Shown piece by piece: positions 16,001-47,068 of a DNA stretch of 64,000 nt. A program made the position numbers and the translations under genes. Where the stretch lies: contig NC_073391.1 in the NCBI RefSeq assembly GCF_028641065.1, positions 34,782,001-34,846,000 on the forward strand, given 5' to 3'. The stretch is from Leucoraja erinacea. Lineage: Eukaryota. The notes beneath the pieces were generated by a model that was not told where the DNA came from, searched no databases, and was given only the letters and a program-made list of their open reading frames with translations. Position 1 is the first letter of the stretch. Each line of letters opens with the position of its first letter.

Positions 16001-18231
16001 TGTACATTGCGGTGAATGGATGGTGGTGGTTACAGGTTGGGGGGGTGTGAGTGACTCACGTGCGTATGGACTGGACTCGCCACTGTTCAGGTAGAAGGTC
16101 TGATGCAGGAGCCATGGGTCCGGGCGATACGTGCCCATGTCGTACCCCATGGATGGGCAGCCTCCCGCTGGGCATGCAAAGCACTCCCCCTGAAACACAC
16201 CCACGTGTGGTTACAACCGGCGCACCACAAGACCCTCCCCGTAACATGTCCCTGGTGCAGAGAACAATCCCAAATACCAATAGGGGGCCTGAGGACCCCA
16301 TGCTGTTAAGGGACATGTCATTAACTATAAACTTTCCCATTACATTCGACCTGCCAAAGTGCAACACCTCACACTTGCTCGGAGTAAACTCCATCTGCTA
16401 TTTACCTGCCACCATCTCTAACCGGTCTATAACTCATCAGCTCGTCCAAACCCACTACCTGCTCCCTCGACCCTCTCCCCACTCCCCTGCTGAAGTCCTG
16501 CCTCCCCGTTCTCTGCCCCTACCTCACTAATCTCTTCAACTCCTCATTGTCCCAAGGAATTGTCCCCTCCGCTATCAAAACTGCTGCTGTCACACCAATC
16601 TTAAAGAAACCTGGTCTTGATCCCTCCTCTCTCATTAACTACTGCCCAATCTCAAACCTTCCCTTTCTTTCAAAAACCCTGGAGCGTATCGTTGCGTCGC
16701 AACTTCATTCCCACCTCCTTGAGTATAACCTACTTGAACCCCTCCAATCTGGCTTTCGCCCCCTCCATTGCACAGAAACTGCTCACCTCTGCTGACACTG
16801 GTTCCCTCAACATCCTCATCCTCCTCGACCTGAGCGCAGCCTTCGATACAGTGAACCATAACATCCTGCTCACCAGACTCAAAGACCTCGGCATTGAAGG
16901 CTCTGCACTCAGCTGGCTCTGTTCCTACATTTCCAACAGATCCCACTTCATCTCTCTCCACAACCACACCTCTGCTACAGCCACAGTCACTCAAGGCGTT
17001 CTCCAAGGCTCCGTACTCGGCCCCCTCCTCTTCATCATCTACATCCTCCCCCTTGGTCAGATACTCCGCCACTTCAACCTGGACTTCCACTGTTACGCTG
17101 ACGACACCCAGATCTACCTCGGCACCAAATCCCCCCACACCCCCCCACNNNNNNNNNNNNNNNNNNNNNNNNNNNNNNNNNNNNNNNNNNNNNNNNNNNN
17201 NNNNNNNNNNNNNNNNNNNNNNNNNNNNNNNNNNNNNNNNNNNNNNNNNNNNNNNNNNNNNNNNNNNNNNNNNNNNNNNNNNNNNNNNNNNNNNNNNNNN
17301 NNNNNNNNNNNNNNNNNNNNNNNNNNNNNNNNNNNNNNNNNNNNTCATAGGCTCCAAAGCCACACTCAGCAAAATCAATAACCCCACTCTCACCATCGAC
17401 GGCACCACTGTCTCCCCATCTCCCCAGGCCCGCAACCTTGGCGTGATCTTCGATTCCACCCTCTCCCTTGAGCCTCACATCCGCCATGTCATTAAAACCT
17501 CCTTCTTTCATCTCCGCAACATCGCTAAACTCAGACCCTCTCTCACACCTCCCGCTGCTGAAAGACTCATCCATGCCTTCATCTCCTCCCGACTGGACTA
17601 CTGCAACTCACTTCTCCTTGGCATCAGCTCCACCTACATCAACCGACTCCAACTGGTCCAGAACGCAGCTGCCCGACTCATCACCCACTCCAAATCCTGG
17701 CATCACATCACTCCAGTCCTCAAACAACTTCACTGGCTTCCCATCTCCCACCGGATCAACTACAAAATCCTGATCCTCACCTACAAAGCCCTCCACCATC
17801 TGCCCCCCCCATATCTCACTGACCTCCTCTCCCCCTACCAACCCTCACGGTCCCTCAGATCCACTTCAGCCGGTCTCCTCTCCATCCACAAGTCCAACCT
17901 CCGCAGTTTTGGGGACAGAGCCACCTCCAGGGCAGCTCCCAGGCTCTGGAACTCCCTCCCCCAACTGATCCGCAATTCCGTGTCCCTCACCATCTTCCAG
18001 TCCCGCCTCAAGACCCATCTCTTCACCTCTGCCTATCCTTAGCCCCACGTCCCCCTCCCTTTTCATCTGTGCATTAATTGCCTCATATTGTGTTTTGTAT
18101 TGAATTCTGTCTTTGCTTTGTGTACTAGTCATGTCTCTACTATTTATTTCATTCCCCTTACATGTTTTTCCTCTACCTTCTTAATTTTTGTAAGGTGGCC
18201 TTGAGACTCTTGAAAGGCGCCCATAAATAAA

Positions 18232-18266
<35 letters not shown>

Positions 18267-35039: not shown

Positions 35040-35810
35040 AAAGGCCGAGCGGCCGCCCTGCCAGCACTGCCGTAAAGCGCAGCGGGCTCGAGTTAATAAG
35101 GGCGGGCGGGTGTCGTAAAGAGCGGCAGATGGTGGTGAAGATGGCGGCGGTGCCGGAGCCGCCGAGCGAAGGGGCAACTCCCGCAGCCACCGCGGTCCCA
35201 GCCCCGGCTCCCGTGCCCGTCCCCTCCCCGGCGCCCGTCCCCGCTGCATCCCCCGCACCCTCGCCGTCGCCCAGCCCGTCGCCGACGCTGGCGGTGAAGG
35301 CAGAGGCGGCGGAGAGCCCAGGGGCCGGGGCCGGGGCTGGGCCTGGCGGGGGCCCGGGAGTTGGAGCTGGGACCGGGACTGGGACTGGGACCGGGAGCTG
35401 GAGCCGCCCCCGCCCCTGCCCCCGCCCCCGGGACCGAGCTGAGCGAACGCCACACGCTGCTCGCCGTGCTGCAGTTCCTGAAGAAGAACCGCTTCCGTGA
35501 GGCGGAGGAGACGCTGCGGCGGGAGGCGAGCGTGCAGGAGGGGCCGGACGAGGCTCTGCGGGCGGCCGGGCCCCGCGGATCCGACTCCGTGCACCAGCCC
35601 GACGTCAGCTCGGTGCTGTCGGCCTACAGCAACCAGGGGGACCCCAGCCTGTACGAGGAGTACTACTGCGGCCTCAAGGCCTTCATCGAGGCGGCGCTGG
35701 ACGCGCTCAAGGCCGAGCTGGCCAGCCTCCTCTATCCGGTCTTCGTGCACCTCTACCTGGAGCTGGTGTACAACGAACACGAACGGGAGGCCCGCCTCTT
35801 CTTCCATAGG
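35040..35810. promoter_or_regulatory. CpG island over TAF5 promoter and exon 1
   Basis: Very high GC and CpG density; GC boxes GGGCGG near 35100. Confidence 0.8.
35141..35809 (+). CDS. TAF5: TAF5 exon 1 (low-complexity N-terminus, LisH, NTD2 start); apparent frameshift
   Basis: aagATGGCG start (upstream in-frame ATG at 35129); conserved part lies in another frame; donor AG|gtcagc. Confidence 0.85.
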
Positions 35811-38800
35811 TCAGCCCCAATGCAGTGTGGTGTGTGGGATATAACACTCAGTGTGTAAACCCCTGCAACCCAAGCACAGATGGGGGGGCCTGACACCTCT
35901 TCCACAGGTCAGCCCCAATGTACAGTGGTGTGTGGAATATAACTGTCAGCGTGTAATCCCTATTAAGTGGTGCGCTGGAGTACTGGTACATAATAGTACA
36001 CAAGTCTGACACTTCTTCCTCAGGTCAGCAGACAACACAATGTGGTGTGGAATGTACACCATAGTGTATAAACTCGTGTATCCAGATGAGAGGTCTCGCA
36101 TCTCTTCTAAGGTTAGCCCCAAAACATTATCTGAAGAAGGGTTTCGACCTGAAACGTCACCCATTCCTTCTTTCCAGAGATGCTGCCTGTCCCGCTGAGT
36201 TACTCCAGCATTTTGTGTGTACCTTCAGTGTATACACATAGAAACATATAAATTAGGTGCAGGAGTAGGCCATTCGGCCCTTCGAGCGTGTGGTGTGGTG
36301 TGCACAGTGAGGTGTGTGCACTTAGTGTGTAAATGTGTAAGCCCCTGTAACTGGAGCACTCGTGCACAATAGTACGCGTCTGACACTTCTTCCACATGTC
36401 ATCAGGTGCACAGTCTGGTTTGCAGTATTCCAGTCAGTGGGTAAACCCCTGTAACTGAGTGGGAGATCTGACACCTCTTCCACAGGTCAGCCTCCAATAC
36501 AGTGTGAACACTGTAAACCTCGAGCTGGGGCTCTAGTGCACAAGTCTGATACTCCCACAGGTCAGCAGCCCCAGTGCATTGTGAACACTAAGGTGGAATA
36601 ACGCTGATAGTATGCAAGCACCTGTAACTGAAGCACTAGTACACAAAAGTACATGTCTGACTCTTCTTCCTCAGGTCAGCAGCCAACACAGTTTGGTGGG
36701 CCGAAGGACCTGTTTAGGTCTGTACAGCTCCATTACTTTGTAACACATGGTGGTGTGTAAATCCTTGGAGCATGAATGGGAGGGTTCGCACTCGATATTG
36801 GCTTATTATTGTAATGTTCATGTGATAAGAATTTGGCCATTCGGCCCATCAAGTCTACTCTGCCATGGCTGATCTATCTCCCCATATCTTCTGACACCCG
36901 TACTAATCAATGGGTACAAGCTTTTGTTTGCATGCTATTCAGCCAAATACTATATACATTAGTCCAATCAATCTATACAAAGACACCAGGTAGTGCACCC
37001 AATGGCACAGCACAGTATGGTAGATTAAACAAATGACTGCAGCCCTTTGTCACCCCGTTAACCTGCTGCACGGTTTATTACAGGTACCACGGAGATCAGG
37101 AAGGCTACTACCATGATGACCTGCGGGTGCTGGCCGGCCTGTCCAAGAAGGAGCACATGCAGGGCAACGAGACAGTGCTGGACTTCCGCACCAGCAAGTT
37201 TGTGCTGCGCATCTCGCGGGACTCTTACCAGTGCCTGAAGCGACACCTGCAGGAGCAACACAACAACCAGATCTGGAACATTGTGCAGGAGCACCTCTTC
37301 ATCGATGTCTTCGACGGCATGCCCAGGAGCAAGCAGCAGATCGAGCTGACCTCCGGAGGGATGGCCGGCGAAGCCAAGAGGGAGGCAAACAAAACCAAGG
37401 TGTGGACTGGGTTACGATCGCTCTCCGCAGGGTGGGTGGAACTCTGACACCTCATCTTTTCTCCACACGGTTGGTTCATAGACCCCATGTCTTCTGCACA
37501 GGGTTAACTCGTAGACCCCACCCCATCTCCACAGGGTTGACTCATAGACCCCCATCCCATCTCCACAGGGTTGATTCATAGACCCCCACCCCATCTCCAC
37601 AGAGTGGGCTCTTGGACTCCACTACTTCTCTGCAGGATCTATGGGGAATCCAGGACCGTAGACCTTCTCTGTAAAGTTGGTGGGGAATCATGGACACCAC
37701 CCCATCTCTGCAGTATGGGTGGGGAACCCTGGAGCCTCGTTTCAGTTATCTAATGGATTAATGGGTTGAGGACCTTGATTGCCATATTAAGGAGAGGGAA
37801 GTTGTGCAGCTGCACAATTGGTGCCTAACAGCGCCAAAGACCCGCGTTCAATTCTGACCACACATGGTGTCTGGAGTTTGCAAGTTCTCCCTGTGACCGC
37901 GTGGGTTTTCTCGGGGTGCTCCGGTTTTCTCCCATATTCCAAAGATGTGCACGTTTATAGGTTAATTGGCTTCTGTAAATTGTCCCTTAGGTGCAGGACA
38001 GAACTAGTGAACTGGTGATCGCTGGTCAGCGCGGACTTGGTGGGCCAAAGGGCCTGTTTCCACGCTGCATCTCTAAACTAGGGAGGGGGAATGGAGCAGG
38101 TCAGGCTCGGGCTTGTCACTGTTGTCTTCCTCACAGAGATGCTGTCTGAGTTGTCTGTTTTAATTGCTGTTCTGAGCTGCCAGTGTGAGGAGCCACAGTG
38201 CAGATGTGGCCACTCGGGTGGGGAACAGGTGGGGAACGGGGGGGGGGAATCGGGGCTCAGCTAACTTGTACAAATCTTGGCAGGTGTTCTTTGGGCTGCT
38301 GAAGGAGCCCGAGATTGAACTGCCTCTGGATGACGAAGATGAGGAAGGAGAGAATGAGGAGGGCAAACCCAAGAAGAAGAAGCCGAAGAAGGACAGTCTG
38401 GGGGCCAAGAGCAAGAAGCAGGACCCTAATGCTCCTCAAGTGAACAGGTCCGTGGCAGGCACCATCACAGTGGGTAGACCAGACCAGCCCTGGTCCCCCG
38501 CTATAACGCTCAGTTAGTGACATTTTTTAAATGAATCAAGAGAAGGCGTTTTAAAATACCAATGGTGTTCATGGGGACAGGGGGACGTCTTCCATTCTGA
38601 GACCTTTTTGCTGCACTCACTCCATGGCAGGAACAACATAGGAGCTGTTCGCTCCACAGTATCACATGGAATAATTAAGTGTCAGATCCTGTGCCCAAAC
38701 AAGTCAATCACTACCAGATCTTTGGTCAGTTATACTGGCTCCATCCATACTTAGTTTTTCAAATCTCTCCTCATTCGCAACTCTGCCATATCTGTAACCT

Positions 38801-41800
38801 CCTTCAACCCACAACCCTCTGATATTGTAATTCCATTCTGGCCAGCTATTCAAACTTAATTGCTCTACCATTAATAAAGTCCAAAATGTTTAATTGACAT
38901 ATGTACCGACAATGAAATTCATACTTCACACGCCCACTAACCCAATAACACGTACAATATACAAAAATCAATGAAATTAATTAATAACCACTGGACTGGT
39001 AACCATACAGTGCAAAAAACTGTCTGTAGTGCAACCAAAGCATTTCACCGATGCTGAGGTTAGTGTGCAGTGTTCAAGAGTCTGTAGGAAAGAACTGCAG
39101 ATGCTGATTTAAATCGAAGGTAGACAAAATGCTGGAGTAACTCACTCAGCAGGACAGGCAGTATCTCTGGAGAGAAGGAATGGGTGATGTTTCGGGTCAA
39201 GACCCTTCTTCAGACTCTGGTGGTTGCTGGGAAGATTCTGTTCTTGAACCTGAAGGTCACAGTTTTCTACCTGATGGTAGCAGCGAGATGAAAGCGTGAC
39301 CAGGGTGGTGTGGGTGTTTGATGCTATTGGCTGCCTCTTAGTGGAAGCGCCTCCTGTAGTTCCCTTCGATGGTGGGGAGGTCAGTACCTGTGAGGCAGTA
39401 TCCACCACTCTCTGTAGTCTCCTTACCGAACCAGGGCATGATGCAACCAGCCAGCTGTGATTCAGTTGACCTGACTTCTGGAATTCTTTCCCTAAACCTC
39501 TCTCCATTTAATTGCATTAGTTAATGTTGTCTAGCTTTCGGATATTTTCCCAATGTCCCCTCTGGTCATTACTCTGTGTCGTAATATTTCTGTCAAGTGT
39601 CTTGGGAAAATGTTGTTATGGTACAGGTGCTATATAAATAGTGGTTCTTGTTGGTGCCATTGAGTTGTTTACAAGGCCATTTATTTAATCAACAAAGATT
39701 ACCTAGTTCTGAAGATAGTTTATACAAGATAATTTTGAAAACTGGCTCTTGCTTTTCCTGCATTACTAGATGCAATTCCTTTTCAAATTACTGCTTTAGC
39801 TGTTAAACATCACAATCAGTCCCACGGTATAAATGAAAGTCTAACTGCTTTCTTTCCTACTGATCAAAATCAATAACCCCACTCTCACCATCGACGGCAC
39901 CACTGTCTCCCCATCTCCCCAGGCCCGCAACCTTGGCGTGATCTTTGATTCCACCCTCTCCCTTGAGCCTCACATCCGCCATGTCATTAAAACCTTCTTT
40001 CATCTCCGCAACGTCGCCAAACTCAGACCCTCTCTCACACCTCCCGCTGCTGAAAGACTCATCCATGCCTTCATCTCCTCCCGACTGGACTACTGCAACT
40101 CGCTTCTCCTTGGCATCAGCTCCACCTACATCAACCGACTCCAACTGGTCCAGAACGCAGCTGCCCGACTCATCACCCACACCAAATCCTGGCATCACAT
40201 CACTCCAGTCCTCAAACAACTTCACTGGCTTCCCATCTCCCACCGGATCAACTAGAAAATCCTGATCCTCACCTACAAAGCCCTCCACCATCTGGCCCCC
40301 CCATATCTCACTGACCTCCTCTCCCCCTACCAACCCTCACAGTCCCTCAGATCCACATCAGCCGGTCTCCTCTCCATCCACGTCCAACCTCCGCAGTTTT
40401 GGGGACAGAGCCTTCTCCAGGGCAGCTCCCAGGCTCTGGAACTCCCTCCCCCAACTGATCCGCAATTCCGTGTCCCTCACCATCTTCCAGTCCCGCCTCA
40501 AGACCCATCTTTTCACCTCTGCCTATCCTTAGCCCCACGTCCCCCTCCCTTTTCATTTGTGCATTCATTGCCTCATATTGTGTTTTGTATTGAATTCTGT
40601 CTTTACTTTGTGTACTAGTCATGTCTCTACTATTTATTTCATTCCCCTTACATGTTTTTCTCTACCTGCTAAATTTTTGTAAGGTGTCCTTGAGACTCTT
40701 GAAAGGCGCCCATAAATAACATTTATTATTATTATTATTACTGAAGAATTCCACTTCCCGAGCTGAAGGACTCTGACAAGTTGGACAAGATCATGATAAT
40801 GAAGGAAGCCACGAAGAGGGTGAAGCTCGGTCCTGACTGCCTGCCTTCCATCTGCTTTTACACCTTTCTCAACGCCTATCAGGTGAATGATGTACTCCTT
40901 CTAAGTGGGAGTAGAACGGTGATGTCTGATGAATCACCACCTCTGATCAGGCCCTTTCCTTGCCGTGGCGGGCAGCAGATGTGTTGCAGTGTCAGTGCTT
41001 TTTGTCGATAAAAAGATGCCGGGACACACATCCTTCCTAGGGTCTACGGCAAATCGCCATCCTATAAGCTGTTAAACTATTTAGGGGTCTGACTGTCTAA
41101 TTTAATTAATTAATAACTATGTAATGCATTAATTAATGAACACATTTTATTTTTTTAACTTTTTGTAATAGTAAATACTCTTTTAAACAAAAAAAAAGTG
41201 AAAATCTAGTTTTTAACTTTTTAGAGGTGCCGATGCACTGTACTAATGCATGCCCTCACAAAAAGCAGTGCACAATGTGTTGGGAAGGATATTCTGCTGG
41301 TTAGAGGTCCAGGTGTACGGTGTTCCCTGGAAAAGATATTTAGTGTGCTTTGGGGGACAGATTGTATATTTTCAAAGTTTAAAGGAGATGTGCAGGGAAA
41401 GTATTTTTACATAGTTGAGTGCCTGGACCAATCTGCCAAGGGTGGTGATATAAGCAGATATGATAATGGTGTTTAAAAGCATTTTGGATTGACACATGGA
41501 TATGCAAGGAATGGAGTGATATGGGTTATGTGCTGGTAGATAAGAGTTGGGCTTGGCATTACGTTGTCCACAGATATTGTGGGCCAAAGGGCCTGTTCTG
41601 GTACTGTGCTGTTCTATGGTCTAATGAAGGTGAAATCGCTGATTTGTGCCATCTGTATGTGTGCTCTGGTAAACTAAGGTGCAAAGCCACGAAGAACACG
41701 GGAAAATCTCACTGAAATAAGCAAAATGATGAATGCCGTCTAAAATTCTCAGCACCAGGAGTTACTGTTTAGGACATGAAATCTTCATACTTAAAGGAGT

Positions 41801-44800
41801 TTGGAAGTTTGAACTGAGGTGGACTGCTTCTTGTTGTCGAGTGAGATCCAGGAAGGTTTAGGAATCAAGGGATATTGTGAACCAGGGCAAACTTCATGAG
41901 GAAGAGGCATGATCCTATTGAACGTGCAGCAGCATGATAGAATGTGTTCCTGGGGAGAACGATTACTAAATGGGTTAAAAGTGAATCTTCATATAATGCT
42001 TAATTATGGGCAGCATAGAGGCAGAGCAGGTAGAGCCGCTGCCTTACAGCTCCAGTGTTTGGGTTCGATCCTGACCCTGAGTGCTGTTTGTGTGGAGTTT
42101 GCACGTTTTCCCAGTGACCATGTGGGTATACATGGGTGCAGTATTTTCCTCCCAAAGACATGCAGATTGGTGAGTTAGTTGTCCCCCAGTTGTAGAAGCA
42201 TGGGAGTTGATGGGAATAGGTTAGTGCAAATGGGCGCTGAGGGTTGGCAGGGATTCGATGGGCCAAAAGGCCTGATTGCGTGACGAAGCATTAAAGGTAA
42301 AATTGGAGTTGCTCAATCTGTACACTACCTTGGTTGCATTGGGGATTCTGTGCACACTGCATCTTCCAACTTTGCGTGTGGTCTGCCTGGTCTCTGATCA
42401 CTGCCGTTCTGTTACTGGTCCAGGGTCTCACTGCGGTCGATTTCACCGACGATTCCAGTCTGATCGCGGGCGGGTTCGCCGATTCCACCGTGAGGGTGTG
42501 GAGCGCCACGCCGAAGAAGCTGCGGAGCGTCAAAGGGGCTACGGGTAAAGCATGCGGAACCCGGGATCCGGCTTTGGCAGTCTGCCTGTGGCTGTGAGAT
42601 TGTAGTGGGAAACGGAACTGGTCCAACTGGCAGCTGGGACTGCAAGAGTGGTGGCTATGATGCACTGTTAAATGATCTTCCCCATATTGCTTATTGTCCC
42701 ATTCCCCTCCGTAGGCTTGTTCATTCCACAGACACCAGTATAGAACAGCGCAGCAACAGGCCCTTTAGCCCACAATGTCCATGCCAAAAATGAATCCAAG
42801 TTAAATTAATCTCCTCAGCCTGCATATCCACATGCCTATCTAATTTTGATAGAATTTCTTAAGCCATGGTACCTATGTGTTGTACAAAACTGTGCAGGGT
42901 CTCTTCATGGGTATTTTCACGCTTCCTAGCCTCCTTTCCGTTGTTCTTTCAGGCCAGGTTTGACAGCTCACTGAGCTAGAATCATGTTCTGCTCCTTAGA
43001 CACAAACCGCTGTTTATCATCACACCTCACTTACACTGGCTTTGTCAATAGACTCTGTGTTGTGCTCCCCATATTCCTCCTGTCCCCACCCCTGCCACCC
43101 CCACACAAGGAGCTGGCTGCAGGATGGCTAGTGACTTGCTATTCTGCAAATGTCTCCTCCCTCCATGGGTTTTCCCAAGACTTTGTTTCCCAGGGAGATT
43201 TTGCCTGTAGATTCTCCATACCTCCAGCTGTGCACAGTAGTAGTGTGGAGCTCTGCATTTCTCTGGCACACGGTTTGAAGTGAGAGGTATAAGTAGCGGT
43301 GAAGGACTCGCCTCTCCCTTGGAGAGGGCTGAGTTTTTGTGAAATGTGTCTGGTCCAGTTGGGGAGTGAATGAGGGTGGTGGCAGAGTGAGGGTGGTGGC
43401 AGGGGGAGGGTGTGTTGGCCCTTGTTCTCAGTATGGGTGCAAACAGCAGTCTCACTGAGTGTTTTATCCAACACCTGCAGATCTCAGTTTAATCGACAAG
43501 GAATCTGAGGACGTGCTGGAGAGAATAATGGATGAGAAGTCTGCCTGCGAGTTTAAAATGTTACTGGGACATGGTGGCCCCGTGTACGGCACCAGCTTTA
43601 GTCCCGACAGGTGAGGCGCCTGGAAACTCTTAGATACAACGTTGTGCTCTTGGTCAGCTAATTGTTTTGTGGATGTTGATTGATGCATAAATTTAGTCCA
43701 ACGTTTGTGATGATGATATTGTCAGAGTGATACAGCAGGGAAATAGGCCCTTCGACCCACTGAGTCCACTCCAACCATCAACAATTCATTTATATTGACC
43801 CTACTTTTAAATTCTCCCCACATTCCCGTCAACTACCCCCTCTCAGATTCTACCTCACCCACACTCCAGGGGAAATTCGCAGCAGCCAATTAACCAACCG
43901 ACCCACGGGGGGTGGGGGGGGGAGGGGGACACAAACCAGAGTACAGAATACTTGGCCCATCAAGTCTATGGCACTACCTAACAGCAGCCCCGTCAGTCTC
44001 ATTGGCGGGTTTTTGACTCATAAACGAAGTGCAACAATTGACATGCAGTTAGCAGGTAGGATAATGACAGAAACATTCTGTGGCCGTGGGCTATTGTGAG
44101 TGACACTGTTCACTTTTGTTCTTCAGGAACTACCTTCTGTCCAGCTCGGAAGACGGGACGGTGAGGCTGTGGAGTCTACAAACCTTCACCTGCCTGGTGG
44201 GTTACAAGGGACATAACTACCCGGTGTGGGACACCCAGTTCTCTCCATACGGCTACTACTTCATTTCAGGGGGCCACGATCGAGTGGCACGGTGAGTGTG
44301 TGTGTGTCTGAACCATGACTGGCGGTGCGTTGTGTCTGAGTCACATCGCCCACCCCACTATGTTCATGCTGACAAGTGGCAGCCTCCTGTGTAAATCCCA
44401 TCTCCCTGCACTTGCATTAGCACCAACATCTAAAGAAAAACAATGAACAGCACATGCTGGGTTATAACAATGATAGACACAACGTGCTGTAGTAGCCCAG
44501 CAGATCGAGCAACATCTCTGGAGAAAAAGGACGGGTGACGTTTTGGGTCGGACAGTCTGAAGAATGGTCTTGACCCAAAACATCACCCATCCTTTTTCTC
44601 CAGAAATGCTGTCTGACCCACTGAGTCACTCCAACATTTTGTGTCAACATTTAACTTACCATTTACTTGGAAAGCATCTTGAAGTAGTATGACATGCAGA
44701 ACGTAAACAGGCCATTTGGCCCAACCAGATAAGGTTCCTGCCCGTGTTTAACCCAGATTTCCCCGAGCCTTTCATATCCACGTATCTCTGAAGGTTCCCG

Positions 44801-47068
44801 ACCCAAAATCTTGTCTATCCATGTCGACCAGAGATGTTGCCTGACCCTCTGAGTTACTCCAACATGGGATCCTTAATTTTGCTAGCCCGAGCTGTCTCCT
44901 CCCCTTCCTTAACCCTCGAGCTGTCTCCTCCCACCCCCCCCCCCCCCCCCCGCTCTCGGGCTCCTCCTCCTCCCCCTTTCCTTCCTTCTCCCCTCCCACC
45001 CCACCCCCCATCAGTCTGAAGAAGGGTTTCGGCCTATTTTCTTCGCTCCATAGATGCTGCTGCACCCGCTGAGTTTCTCCAGCAATTTTGTGTTACTCCA
45101 ACACTTTGTTTTGCTCAACTTTCTAACATTTGCAATTCCTTTGTTTCTTCTCTCTATCCATATAGCTGCCCAAATGTCTTTTAAATGTTATTGTACTTGC
45201 CTCCTCTGGCAGCTCGTTCCATATACTCACCATCTAACTGAAAACATTGCCCTTCAAGTTAGTCATACAGAACAGGCATTTGGCCCAACTCATCCATTCC
45301 GACCAAGGTGTCCATTAATGTTTGTTCTGCCGGCTCACGTTTGACCCATATCGTTCTCAAATGTTCCTATCTATGTACCTGTCCCAGCTGTCTTTTAAAT
45401 GTTGTGCCTGCCTTAACTACAGCTCATTCCATATAGCTACCACCCTTTTGAGTGGAAAGGTTTGCCTGTCATGTTCCTATTAAATCTTTCTGGGCACCTT
45501 AGATGACTGTCCACTTTATCTACACCTCTTGTGATTTTATAAATCTGCATACTAAGGGCTCAGTAAACGCAAATTGCTGTTTTTGACTGAGTTGCCGTGA
45601 CCTGTGTATTTATGTGAATGTGCCGTGAACATGATCATCACATTGTGATGTTCCACCCGCCAGGCTCTGGGTGACAGACCACTACCAGCCTCTGCGAATC
45701 TTCTCTGGTCATCTCTCTGATGTCACCTGCACCAGATTTCACCCCAACTCCAACTACGTGGCAACTGGATCTGCAGACAGGACCATCCGGCTCTGGGACG
45801 TTCTGAACGGCAACTGCGTGCGAATCCTGACTGGACACAAGGTGGGCAGCCCGGCACGGGTGGCTGGCAGGGACCTGGCCGAGACGGGCGTTAGTAACGG
45901 CCTCTCATTTCTCACGCTAGGGGCCGATCCACTCGCTGGCGTTTTCTCCCAGCGGCAGGTACCTGGCGTCAGGCGCCACGGACGGACGGGTGCTGCTGTG
46001 GGACATCGGGCACGGGCTGCTGGTGGGGGAGCTAAACGGCCACACGGACACCGTCTACTCTCTCAAGTTCAGTCGGGACGGCGAGATACTAGCCTCAGGT
46101 GAGACCCTTCATCTCTTGCAATTCGGGGGCAGGGTGGGATCTTCCGTGAAGATCAACATTCCCGTCTGTTCTAAGGTGGTGATAGGCATTTTCCCATTGG
46201 CATGTTCAGTTATGGGACTCTGAATGGTAGGGTCCTGGGAAATGTTGTAGAACAAAGGGATCTGGACTACGTAGAATATATTACAATATAGCACATGAAC
46301 GGATCCTTACGGATGCTAGACACAAAATGCTGGAGTAACTCAGCAGCATCTCTGGAGAGAAGGAATGGGTGACGTTTTGGGTCGAGACCCTTCTTCAGAC
46401 TGGGTCTCGACCTCGACCCCAGTGTGTTAAAAGAAGCACGGGAACTGGTGCCCCAGTGCAAGGACCCGGGGAAATAAACACCTGGTGAAGTAGGTGCCGA
46501 ACTATTGACATTTTTGAATAGTTGGGTAGCGGACTGCCAGTTTTCCTGCATGCAGTTGTCATGTTGGTATTTGTGGGATTGCACTGTGTAAATTCACTGC
46601 TGTACTTCTGCGGTTACAACACCCTTTGGAGTTTATTGCATGGGACAGTATTGCTGAGACGGTAGGATGGAATATGCACTACAGATCATGGGCAATTGCC
46701 AGAGTGTACAGTGTGTGAACACTCAATGATACAGCCCAGATGGTGGCAGGCTGGAGTGATGAATATGGGTCCTGGTCGCAGTACCCACTGGTGAAACTGG
46801 GGGCTCCATGGATGTGCAGGGAATGCCTGACTCGTGCTTTGTTGTTGCAGGCTCCATGGATCACACGGTGAAGATGTGGGATACGATCAAGGCCTTTGAG
46901 GATCTGGAGACGGACGATTTTAGCACTGCCACCGGCCACATCAACCTGGCCGACAACTCACAGGAGCTGCTGCTGGGCTCCTACATGACCAAGTCCACGC
47001 CAGTCATCGGCCTGCACTTCACCCGCCGCAACCTGTTGTTGGCTGCCGGGGCCTACAATCCCCAGTGA
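35141..47068 (+). CDS. TAF5: TFIID subunit 5 (NTD1/LisH, NTD2, WD40 repeats), 10 coding exons, about 757 aa after correcting a 1-nt frameshift in exon 1
   Basis: Exons 35141-35809, 37084-37399, 38284-38447, 40747-40882, 42424-42544, 43481-43610, 44127-44291, 45664-45841, 45921-46098, 46851-47068. Peptides LLAVLQFLKK, YPVFVHLYLELVYN, DFRTSKFVLRISRDSY, LPSICFYTFLNAYQ, WD40s, C-terminal HFTRRNLLLAAGAY. Confidence 0.97.
35795..36690. repeat. Degenerate tandem repeat (units of about 75-115 bp) copying the TAF5 exon 1/intron 1 junction
   Basis: CTCTTCCACAG-GTCAGC recurs 7-8 times. Confidence 0.85.
37084..37399 (+). CDS. TAF5: TAF5 exon 2
   Basis: YHGDQEGYYHDDLRVL...EANKTK; 316 nt, phase consistent. 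Confidence 0.95.
37455..37730. repeat. Minisatellite (CTCCACAGGGTTGACTCATAGACCCC-like)
   Basis: Repeated unit of about 35 bp in TAF5 intron 2. Confidence 0.8.
38284..38447 (+). CDS. TAF5: TAF5 exon 3
   Basis: VFFGLLKEPEIELPLDDED...DPNAPQVN. Confidence 0.95.
39864..40738 (+). mobile_element. 5'-truncated L2 LINE, same family as 16430-18262, in TAF5 intron 3
   Basis: Near-identical to about 17370-18260; flanking TACTGA duplication; (TAT)n tail. Confidence 0.95.
40747..40882 (+). CDS. TAF5: TAF5 exon 4
   Basis: IPLPELKDSDKLDK...FLNAYQ; acceptor gaag directly after an L2 (TAT)n tail. Confidence 0.93.
42424..42544 (+). CDS. TAF5: TAF5 exon 5
   Basis: GLTAVDFTDDSSLIAGGFADSTVRVWS. Confidence 0.95.
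43481..43610 (+). CDS. TAF5: TAF5 exon 6
   Basis: DLSLIDKESEDVLERIMDEK...GHGGPVYGTSFSPD. Confidence 0.95.
44127..44291 (+). CDS. TAF5: TAF5 exon 7
   Basis: NYLLSSSEDGTVRLWSLQTFTCLVGYKGHNYPVWD. Confidence 0.95.
45664..45841 (+). CDS. TAF5: TAF5 exon 8
   Basis: LWVTDHYQPLRIFSGH...FHPNSNYVATGSADRT. Confidence 0.95.
45921..46098 (+). CDS. TAF5: TAF5 exon 9
   Basis: GPIHSLAFSPSGRYLASG...FSRDGEILAS; follows a 79-nt intron. Confidence 0.95.
46851..47068 (+). CDS. TAF5: TAF5 last coding exon
   Basis: GSMDHTVKMWD...LLLAAGAYNPQ*; AATAAA at 47701-47706. Confidence 0.95.

What the first reader, a model, noticed from the sequence alone, without database searches (positions are those of the whole stretch)
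39841..40750. L2 retrotransposon inserted inside a 3' splice site of the essential gene TAF5
Seen: left flank CTAAC-TGCTTTCTTTCC-TACTGA (branch-point-like motif plus pyrimidine tract), an 875-bp L2, then (TAT)n-TACTGA-AG|exon 4. TACTGA is duplicated at 39858-39863 and 40739-40744, so the pre-insertion acceptor was ctaactgctttctttcctactgaag. The original branch point and pyrimidine tract now lie about 0.9 kb from the AG. Inference: the L2 tail must act as the new 3' splice signal, or splicing is impaired (skipping the 136-nt exon would shift the frame), or the allele is polymorphic.
Basis: partly seen in the sequence, partly recalled or inferred. Interest (0 to 1): 0.7.

Follow-up and report, generated by a model that had tools for sequence, protein, structure and literature searches.

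The report
LINE tail replaces TAF5 splice signal
A jumping gene landed two letters in front of an exon's splice acceptor in the vital TAF5 gene and pushed the old splicing signals 0.9 kb away; it is shared by two related species, the exon is still spliced to the exact base, and the jumping gene's own tail likely supplies the replacement signals.

Summary
An 875-bp, 5'-truncated, sense LINE (L2-type) with a TACTGA duplication sits between the old branch point/pyrimidine tract and the AG of TAF5 exon 4. DNA contigs show it on both haplotypes of an organism A sample and in organism B. Organism C carries the predicted empty site, and organism D also lacks the element. RNA contigs from two organism A studies hold exactly the exon 4+5+6 length between exons 3 and 7/8, so the native AG is used. 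The old branch point is cut off by 26 AGs. The tail offers a TAAC motif at -28, a U-rich (ATT)n tract and a 39-nt AG-free zone, so it likely took over. Two details look like a survival filter. The tail is a rare variant (156 of 3226 copies) that turns AATAAA into a branch-like TAAC. The 5' junction has T where 28 of 30 copies have G, which would have rebuilt a decoy AG. Not measured: branch site, junction efficiency, and the genotype of the RNA animals. This is a clean variant of known transposon-donated splice signals, one case only.

The parts
38284..38447 (+). TAF5 exon 3 (164 nt, phase-2 donor)
   Evidence: gene model; RNA contig piece 38282-38447 in X15 record 1
39841..39845 (+). Original branch-point-like motif CTAAC (A at 39844; -22 in the empty allele), now orphaned
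   Evidence: sequence; branch use inferred
39846..39857 (+). Original pyrimidine tract, now about 0.9 kb from the AG
   Evidence: sequence; contiguous with the AG in organism C
39858..39863 (+). 5' copy of target-site duplication TACTGA
   Evidence: empty site
39864..39864 (+). Junction base T; 28 of 30 family copies have G here, which would make an AG 20 nt after the old branch A
39865..40738 (+). 5'-truncated sense LINE (L2-type): ORF2 C-terminal remnant, 3' UTR, stem-loop, (ATT)n tail; 9 private substitutions and 3 small deletions against other copies
39901..39922 (+). First AG after the old branch point (17 of 20 pyrimidines before it): strongest-looking cryptic acceptor; use would shift the frame
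   Evidence: use not observed
40676..40716 (+). Predicted 3' tail stem-loop that covers the last three upstream AGs (40682, 40693, 40704)
   Evidence: z -1.2, not significant
40716..40720 (+). Element-derived branch-like motif ATAAC (A at 40719, -28); C at 40720 is the rare tail variant that lacks AATAAA
40721..40738 (+). U-rich (ATT)n tail, likely substitute pyrimidine tract
   Evidence: 11 T and 12 pyrimidines in -22..-3; function inferred
40739..40744 (+). 3' copy of target-site duplication TACTGA
40745..40746 (+). Native acceptor AG, still used
   Evidence: contig lengths, arithmetic
40747..40882 (+). TAF5 exon 4 (136 nt), single copy in G000

Best explanation
A LINE copy inserted two bases before the acceptor AG of TAF5 exon 4, exon 4 is still spliced at that AG, and the LINE's own tail likely serves as the new branch point and U-rich tract. 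Shown: the insertion, its 6-bp duplication, the empty site in organism C, its presence in organisms A and B, and base-exact inclusion of exon 4. Inferred: target-primed insertion copied the last 6 intron bases, so the AG kept its immediate context; U2 likely pairs at the tail's TAAC (A 40719) or at weaker TnA sites in the repeat; U2AF likely uses the (ATT)n tract; the first AG downstream is the native one. The allele likely survived because this copy lacked the family's AATAAA, carried TAAC instead, and had T rather than G at its 5' junction, so no decoy AG followed the old signals.
For:: X2 (organism A DNA) has one unbroken contig 39540-39893 with 0 differences, depth 23.3, equal to its two upstream allelic contigs (13.2+9.2); X3 (organism B) runs 39541-39893 into the element with 9 differences; X4 (C) shows the empty site; X7 (D) stops matching at 39863 with 791 letters beyond. 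with arithmetic: X15 record 1 holds 387 nt between exons 3 and 7 (136+121+130), X17 record 7 holds 717 nt between exons 2 and 8, both as expected; 26 AGs lie between the old branch A and the exon AG; the first AG after A 40719 is the native one, 27 nt on; 11 of 11 coding differences shown in the RNA contigs are synonymous. AG-free zone 39 nt; 11 T in -22..-3, against 6-11 at the gene's 8 other acceptors. C 156, A 3056, G or T 14; 39 against 427 on the same 65-nt background. G in 28 of 30 copies at the junction base. Loss of taf5 is lethal in zebrafish (PMC10354717, abstract).
Against: No branch point was mapped and no junction read counts were obtained: one search skipped 40714-40750 as a repeat, and raw-read depth on exons was about 1-2. 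Contigs drop rare forms, and all 26 cryptic AGs give a frameshift or stop, so mis-spliced RNA would likely be degraded unseen. The new tract's longest pyrimidine run is 3, against 11 before, and the -3 base is A. The RNA animals were not genotyped; fixation rests on one A sample (possibly the assembly's source) and one B sample, where the contig depth (16.1 against 5.7+15.7 upstream) proves only one haplotype. The 3' junction was not checked in DNA reads. The rare-variant argument is one case found after the fact (chance 5-8%). No local tuning: 38 other copies are identical over 40660-40724, and two private changes add AGs. The assembly has a frame break in exon 1.
Confidence: 0.8

Rival explanations
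1. The tail is used, but the TAAC variant is incidental: branching happens at weak TnA sites in the (ATT)n repeat, any copy of the family would have worked, and strong exon definition does the rest.
For: Six further TnAY motifs lie at -22 to -7. The C variant occurs on several sequence backgrounds, so 5-8% of insertions have it by chance. Branch motifs are weakly conserved (PMC8819188, passages).
Against: The common variant carries AATAAA in sense just upstream of a U-rich run and lacks the C after the branch A; this copy has the 5-8% form.
Confidence: 0.3
2. Splicing is materially impaired: a fair share of transcripts skip exon 4 or use cryptic AGs in the element and are degraded; the allele is mildly harmful and was fixed by drift.
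For: Weak tract; cryptic AGs at 39921, 39966, 40341, 40489 and 40531 have 16-17 pyrimidines in 20; every alternative has a stop or frameshift. An Alu 41 bp upstream of a near-constitutive NUP160 exon promotes skipping in a reporter (PMC6326789, passages).
Against: Two studies' contigs give only the correct path. The allele is shared by two species about 2.5% apart in the flank with no private repair in the last 79 nt.
Confidence: 0.2
3. The insertion is polymorphic and the correctly spliced RNA comes from empty alleles.
For: RNA samples (S8, S10) are not the DNA sample (S1); only one A genome sample was laid; contigs can hide rare alleles.
Against: Both haplotypes of X2 are filled and organism B is filled; the copy has about 1% private substitutions, so it is not brand new.
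Confidence: 0.06
4. The old branch point and tract still work from 0.9 kb away, the element being looped out or skipped.
For: The old motif and tract are intact in organism A and no change is listed there for B.
Against: Branch definition needs an AG-free path to the acceptor (PMC8819188, passages); here 26 AGs intervene, the first 78 nt after the old branch A. About 1% divergence is too little to expect decay of a 20-nt motif.
Confidence: 0.04
5. Assembly artefact.
For: Only the 5' junction was checked in DNA contigs.
Against: The 5' junction stands in contigs of two organisms, and the duplication matches the empty site exactly.
Confidence: 0.01

Closest known systems
Merle SINE in dog PMEL, intron 10/exon 11 boundary (PMC7349775, passages)
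   Same: Retroposon inserted into the original acceptor with a target-site duplication; the old branch point is displaced; the element's tail shapes splicing.
   Different: Merle is antisense, uses a poly(T) and a cryptic AG, exonizes element sequence, is polymorphic and causes a phenotype. Here the element is sense, the tail is (ATT)n, the native AG and mRNA are kept, and two species share it.
Polymorphic Alu insertions 31-41 bp upstream of exons, NUP160 and SLC2A9 (PMC6326789, passages)
   Same: Insertion into the branch point/pyrimidine zone of an existing exon.
   Different: Those increase skipping by displacing signals (one further locus had no effect); they are polymorphic and not 2 nt from the AG.
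Intronic under-representation zones (PMC3088655, passages)
   Same: Defines this position (sense LINE, under 20 bp from an acceptor) as very likely harmful.
   Different: This locus is a surviving exception in an essential gene outside human and mouse.
MIR/AluSp-derived branch points in BLOC1S2 (PMC6822395, passages)
   Same: Transposon sequence predicted to supply branch points.
   Different: There they serve a new transposon-derived exon; here they would serve an old constitutive coding exon.
L2-clade LINEs UnaL2 and ZfL2 (PMC1636434, PMC4176376, passages)
   Same: 3' tail with a stem-loop followed by a short terminal repeat; RT-encoding family; 5' truncation.
   Different: Repeat unit here is ATT; clade placement was not tested by a tree.

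Membership tests
TAF5 (not TAF5L) | LisH-like/NTD2 domains followed by WD40 repeats, best match to TAF5 | tested here: met
   TFIID_NTD2 above cut-off in exons 1 and 2, WD40 in later exons; exon 4 E 8e-24 to TAF5, 1e-3 to TAF5L
TAF5 (functional gene) | Open frame from start to stop | tested here: inconclusive
   656 codons open from 35445 to the stop, 11 of 11 shown coding variants synonymous; the assembly has a frame break between 35326 and about 35440 that no read covered
Non-LTR retrotransposon insertion | Family encodes reverse transcriptase | tested here: met
   RVT_1 at E 5e-35 and 2.5e-28 in longer copies L093 and L092
Non-LTR retrotransposon insertion | 5' truncation, repeat tail, short target-site duplication confirmed by an empty site | tested here: met
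   crude duplications of 5-9 nt in 11 of 42 other truncated copies
L2 clade | 3' stem-loop followed by a short tandem repeat | tested here: inconclusive
   Repeat present; stem-loop predicted at 40676-40716 but 27 of 200 shuffles fold as well
L2 clade | RT phylogeny groups with L2 rather than CR1 or other clades | not tested
   No named reference set was fetched; the Atlas gave only unnamed chordate and mollusc clusters. The ORF2 C-terminal likeness to L2 is recalled.
L2 clade | AP endonuclease domain upstream of RT | not tested
   Frames scanned gave RT only; no full-length copy was sought
Transposon-donated 3' splice signal | Native exon spliced correctly although host signals are displaced | tested here: met
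   RNA animals not genotyped
Transposon-donated 3' splice signal | Branch point mapped inside element sequence | not testable with these tools
   needs lariat sequencing or a minigene

The most novel reading that the evidence does not exclude
A minority tail variant of this LINE family is a portable 3' splice module: one base change removes the poly(A) hexamer and makes a branch point, and the (ATT)n repeat works as a pyrimidine tract, so such copies can land inside an acceptor and rebuild it at once. Then a vertebrate spliceosome accepts a UUA-repeat tract on a constitutive essential exon, and the two tail types should differ genome-wide in where they survive in genes.
Probability: 0.3. Interest if true: 0.65.

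Novelty: new variant of a known kind. Interest (0 to 1): 0.45.

Why it matters
Sense LINE insertions within 20 bp of an acceptor are reported as very likely harmful. This one sits 2 bases from the AG of an essential gene, is shared by two species, has a known empty state in relatives, and still yields correct mRNA. It is a ready-made before/after pair for asking what a vertebrate 3' splice site minimally needs, whether an (ATT)n tail can replace a pyrimidine tract, and how retrotransposons swap host splice signals without changing the protein. It is also a clean presence/absence marker that groups organisms A and B apart from C and D.

Tried and rejected
Junction counts: the whole-gene lay was swamped by repeats and skipped 40714-40750, so no exon 3-4, 3-5 or cryptic joint row appeared; raw runs X24 (about 5 in 100 read) and X22 (about 1 in 100) gave nothing usable on exon 4. 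No RNA holder was on record as RNA; X15 and X17 are RNA by the tool's guess, and their exon-only pieces fit spliced RNA. I laid 8 of the 24 runs listed. Local compensation in the tail was rejected: no private substitution after 40566, last private change a 1-nt deletion at 40659. The C variant as one subfamily was not supported: it lies on several backgrounds. A screen for other copies sitting before exons (72 frames from 88 loci against Pfam) is uninformative: it missed its own positive control, TAF5 exon 4; its single hit was a Sleeping Beauty-type transposase piece in L086. The tail hairpin is not better than shuffles. A second TAF5 exon 4 or an empty haplotig in G000 was not found. Paper searches for a fixed insertion whose tail replaces an acceptor's signals listed no such case; the library lacks most subscription papers and no supplements were read. 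PMC11423858 passages gave TFIID structure only.

Full report
Observation. The window reads CTAAC at 39841-39845, a pyrimidine run, TACTGA at 39858-39863, 875 bp of insert, TACTGA at 40739-40744 and AG at 40745-40746. The duplication is exactly 6 bp. A ten-exon model with GT-AG introns is open for 656 codons from 35445 to the stop. It carries TFIID_NTD2 and WD40 domains, and exon 4 matches human TAF5 426-471 far better than TAF5L. Exon 4 has one match in G000. Skipping it gives a stop at 42461.

The element. A second copy in the window (17370-18251) is 97.2% identical. A genome search gave 505 candidates, 40 scored, at 97-99% over the last 185 bases. Longer copies encode reverse transcriptase. 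Copies are 5'-truncated at many places and end in (ATT)n; 11 of 42 truncated copies show crude duplications of 5-9 nt. The TAF5 copy has 9 private substitutions in 874 columns and 3 small deletions against 60 sampled copies. A stem-loop before the repeat is predicted but not significant. This anatomy fits L2-clade tails (PMC1636434 and PMC4176376, passages), but the clade label is otherwise recalled and no tree was built.

Is it real and fixed? I laid four DNA-type runs on 39470-39910. X2 (organism A) has two allelic contigs upstream (depth 13.2 and 9.2) that merge into one contig 39540-39893 at depth 23.3, running 30 bases into the element: both haplotypes are filled. X2 may be the assembly's own source. 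X3 (organism B) has a contig 39541-39893 with 9 differences, also filled; its depth proves one haplotype only. X7 (organism D) stops matching at 39863 with 791 letters beyond; those letters were not shown. So the insertion came after the split from C and D and is shared by A and B. The listed flank differences show no derived change shared by A and B alone; word shares on the right flank (0.75 for B, 0.32 for C) put B closer. The 3' junction was not examined in DNA.

Is exon 4 spliced? The whole-gene lay gave no joint row for this acceptor, since the tool skipped 40714-40750 as a repeat and cut its tables. The contig pieces settle the main product. X15 record 1 places exon 3 at record 821-986 and exon 7 at 270-436, leaving 387 nt, the sum of exons 4, 5 and 6. 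X17 record 7 leaves 717 nt between exons 2 and 8, the expected figure. These runs come from two studies of organism A; the animals were not genotyped. All 11 coding differences shown for these contigs are synonymous (228 rows of that table were not shown), as expected of a working gene. Zebrafish taf5 loss is lethal (PMC10354717, abstract).

Mechanism. Between the old branch A (39844) and the exon AG lie 26 AGs, the first 78 nt on, and each would give a frameshift or stop. Branch definition needs an AG-free path to the acceptor (PMC8819188, passages), so the old signals are unlikely to serve. The tail has ATAAC with the A at -28, then 11 T in positions -22 to -3 (6-11 at the gene's 8 other acceptors, 9 in the empty site) and a 39-nt AG-free zone; the first AG after that A is the native one. 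The tract is weak by the usual standard: 12 pyrimidines in 20, longest run 3. I infer that U2 and U2AF now read element sequence, helped by exon definition. Sense L2 sequence binds PTBP1 and MATR3 in human cells (PMC6108849, passages), which could quiet the cryptic AGs; that is untested here.

Two lucky details. First, the base after the branch-like A is C in 156 copies, A in 3056 and G or T in 14; on this copy's exact 65-nt background it is 39 against 427. The common form reads AATAAA, a poly(A) hexamer in the gene's sense; this copy lacks it and has TAAC. The variant is about 22 times commoner than each other change at that site, lies on several backgrounds, and 38 other copies match this tail exactly, so it was likely present at insertion rather than fixed later. 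Second, 28 of 30 copies have G before the point where this copy starts. G there would have put an AG 20 nt after the old branch A, a complete decoy acceptor; the locus has T. An added base at insertion or a later change would both explain it. Each detail fits a survival filter, but this is one locus read after the fact, with a 5-8% chance for the first.

Against this reading: no branch mapping, no junction counts, possible hidden mis-splicing, one genome sample per species, and a frame break in exon 1 of the assembly (between 35326 and about 35440, a GC-rich repeat no read covered), likely an assembly indel.

Relation to known cases. Sense LINEs under 20 bp from an acceptor are described as very likely harmful (PMC3088655, passages). 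The dog merle SINE sits in an acceptor but is antisense, uses a cryptic AG and is polymorphic (PMC7349775, passages). Alu insertions 31-41 bp upstream raise skipping (PMC6326789, passages). Transposon-derived branch points are predicted for a new exon of BLOC1S2 (PMC6822395, passages). Four searches listed no fixed sense-LINE case that keeps the native AG; the library is partial and no supplements were read. Earlier notes of this scan describe like events in other genomes, mostly polymorphic or untested; they are unchecked leads.

Verdict. Real, shared by two species, correctly spliced in the main product, with the element's tail the likely new 3' splice signal (0.8). A new variant of a known kind; interest 0.45.

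Noticed in passing
window 35141-35809: TAF5 exon 1 has a frame break between the ATG frame and the conserved frame, within 35326 to about 35440 (GC-rich repeat). RNA contigs flank but do not cover it; likely an assembly indel.
   Followed up: partly
window 35141-35809: The model has 10 coding exons; from recall the human gene has 11, with this first exon split in two. Possible intron loss or gain, not checked.
   Followed up: no
window 17370-18251: Second, longer copy of the same LINE, 97.2% identical, with the common AATAAA tail; it continues 5' past the N stretch.
   Followed up: partly
G000 genome-wide, LINE tail position equal to window 40720: The C variant occurs on several subfamily backgrounds at about 22 times the rate of G or T, which hints at a recurrent change near the start of reverse transcription or at several source copies.
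   Followed up: partly
L013:789-1678: Another copy is truncated at the same 5' position, also with T before it, but with different flanks.
   Followed up: no
window 45842-45920: Intron 8 is only 79 nt in a gene whose other introns are 0.5-2.3 kb.
   Followed up: no
window 35810-36700 and 37460-37602: Intron 1 begins with degenerate repeats resembling the exon 1 donor region; intron 2 has a 34-nt tandem array.
   Followed up: no
L086:1546-1785: A LINE tail is followed by a Sleeping Beauty-type transposase HTH frame (E 1e-24), likely an insertion into a Tc1 element.
   Followed up: no
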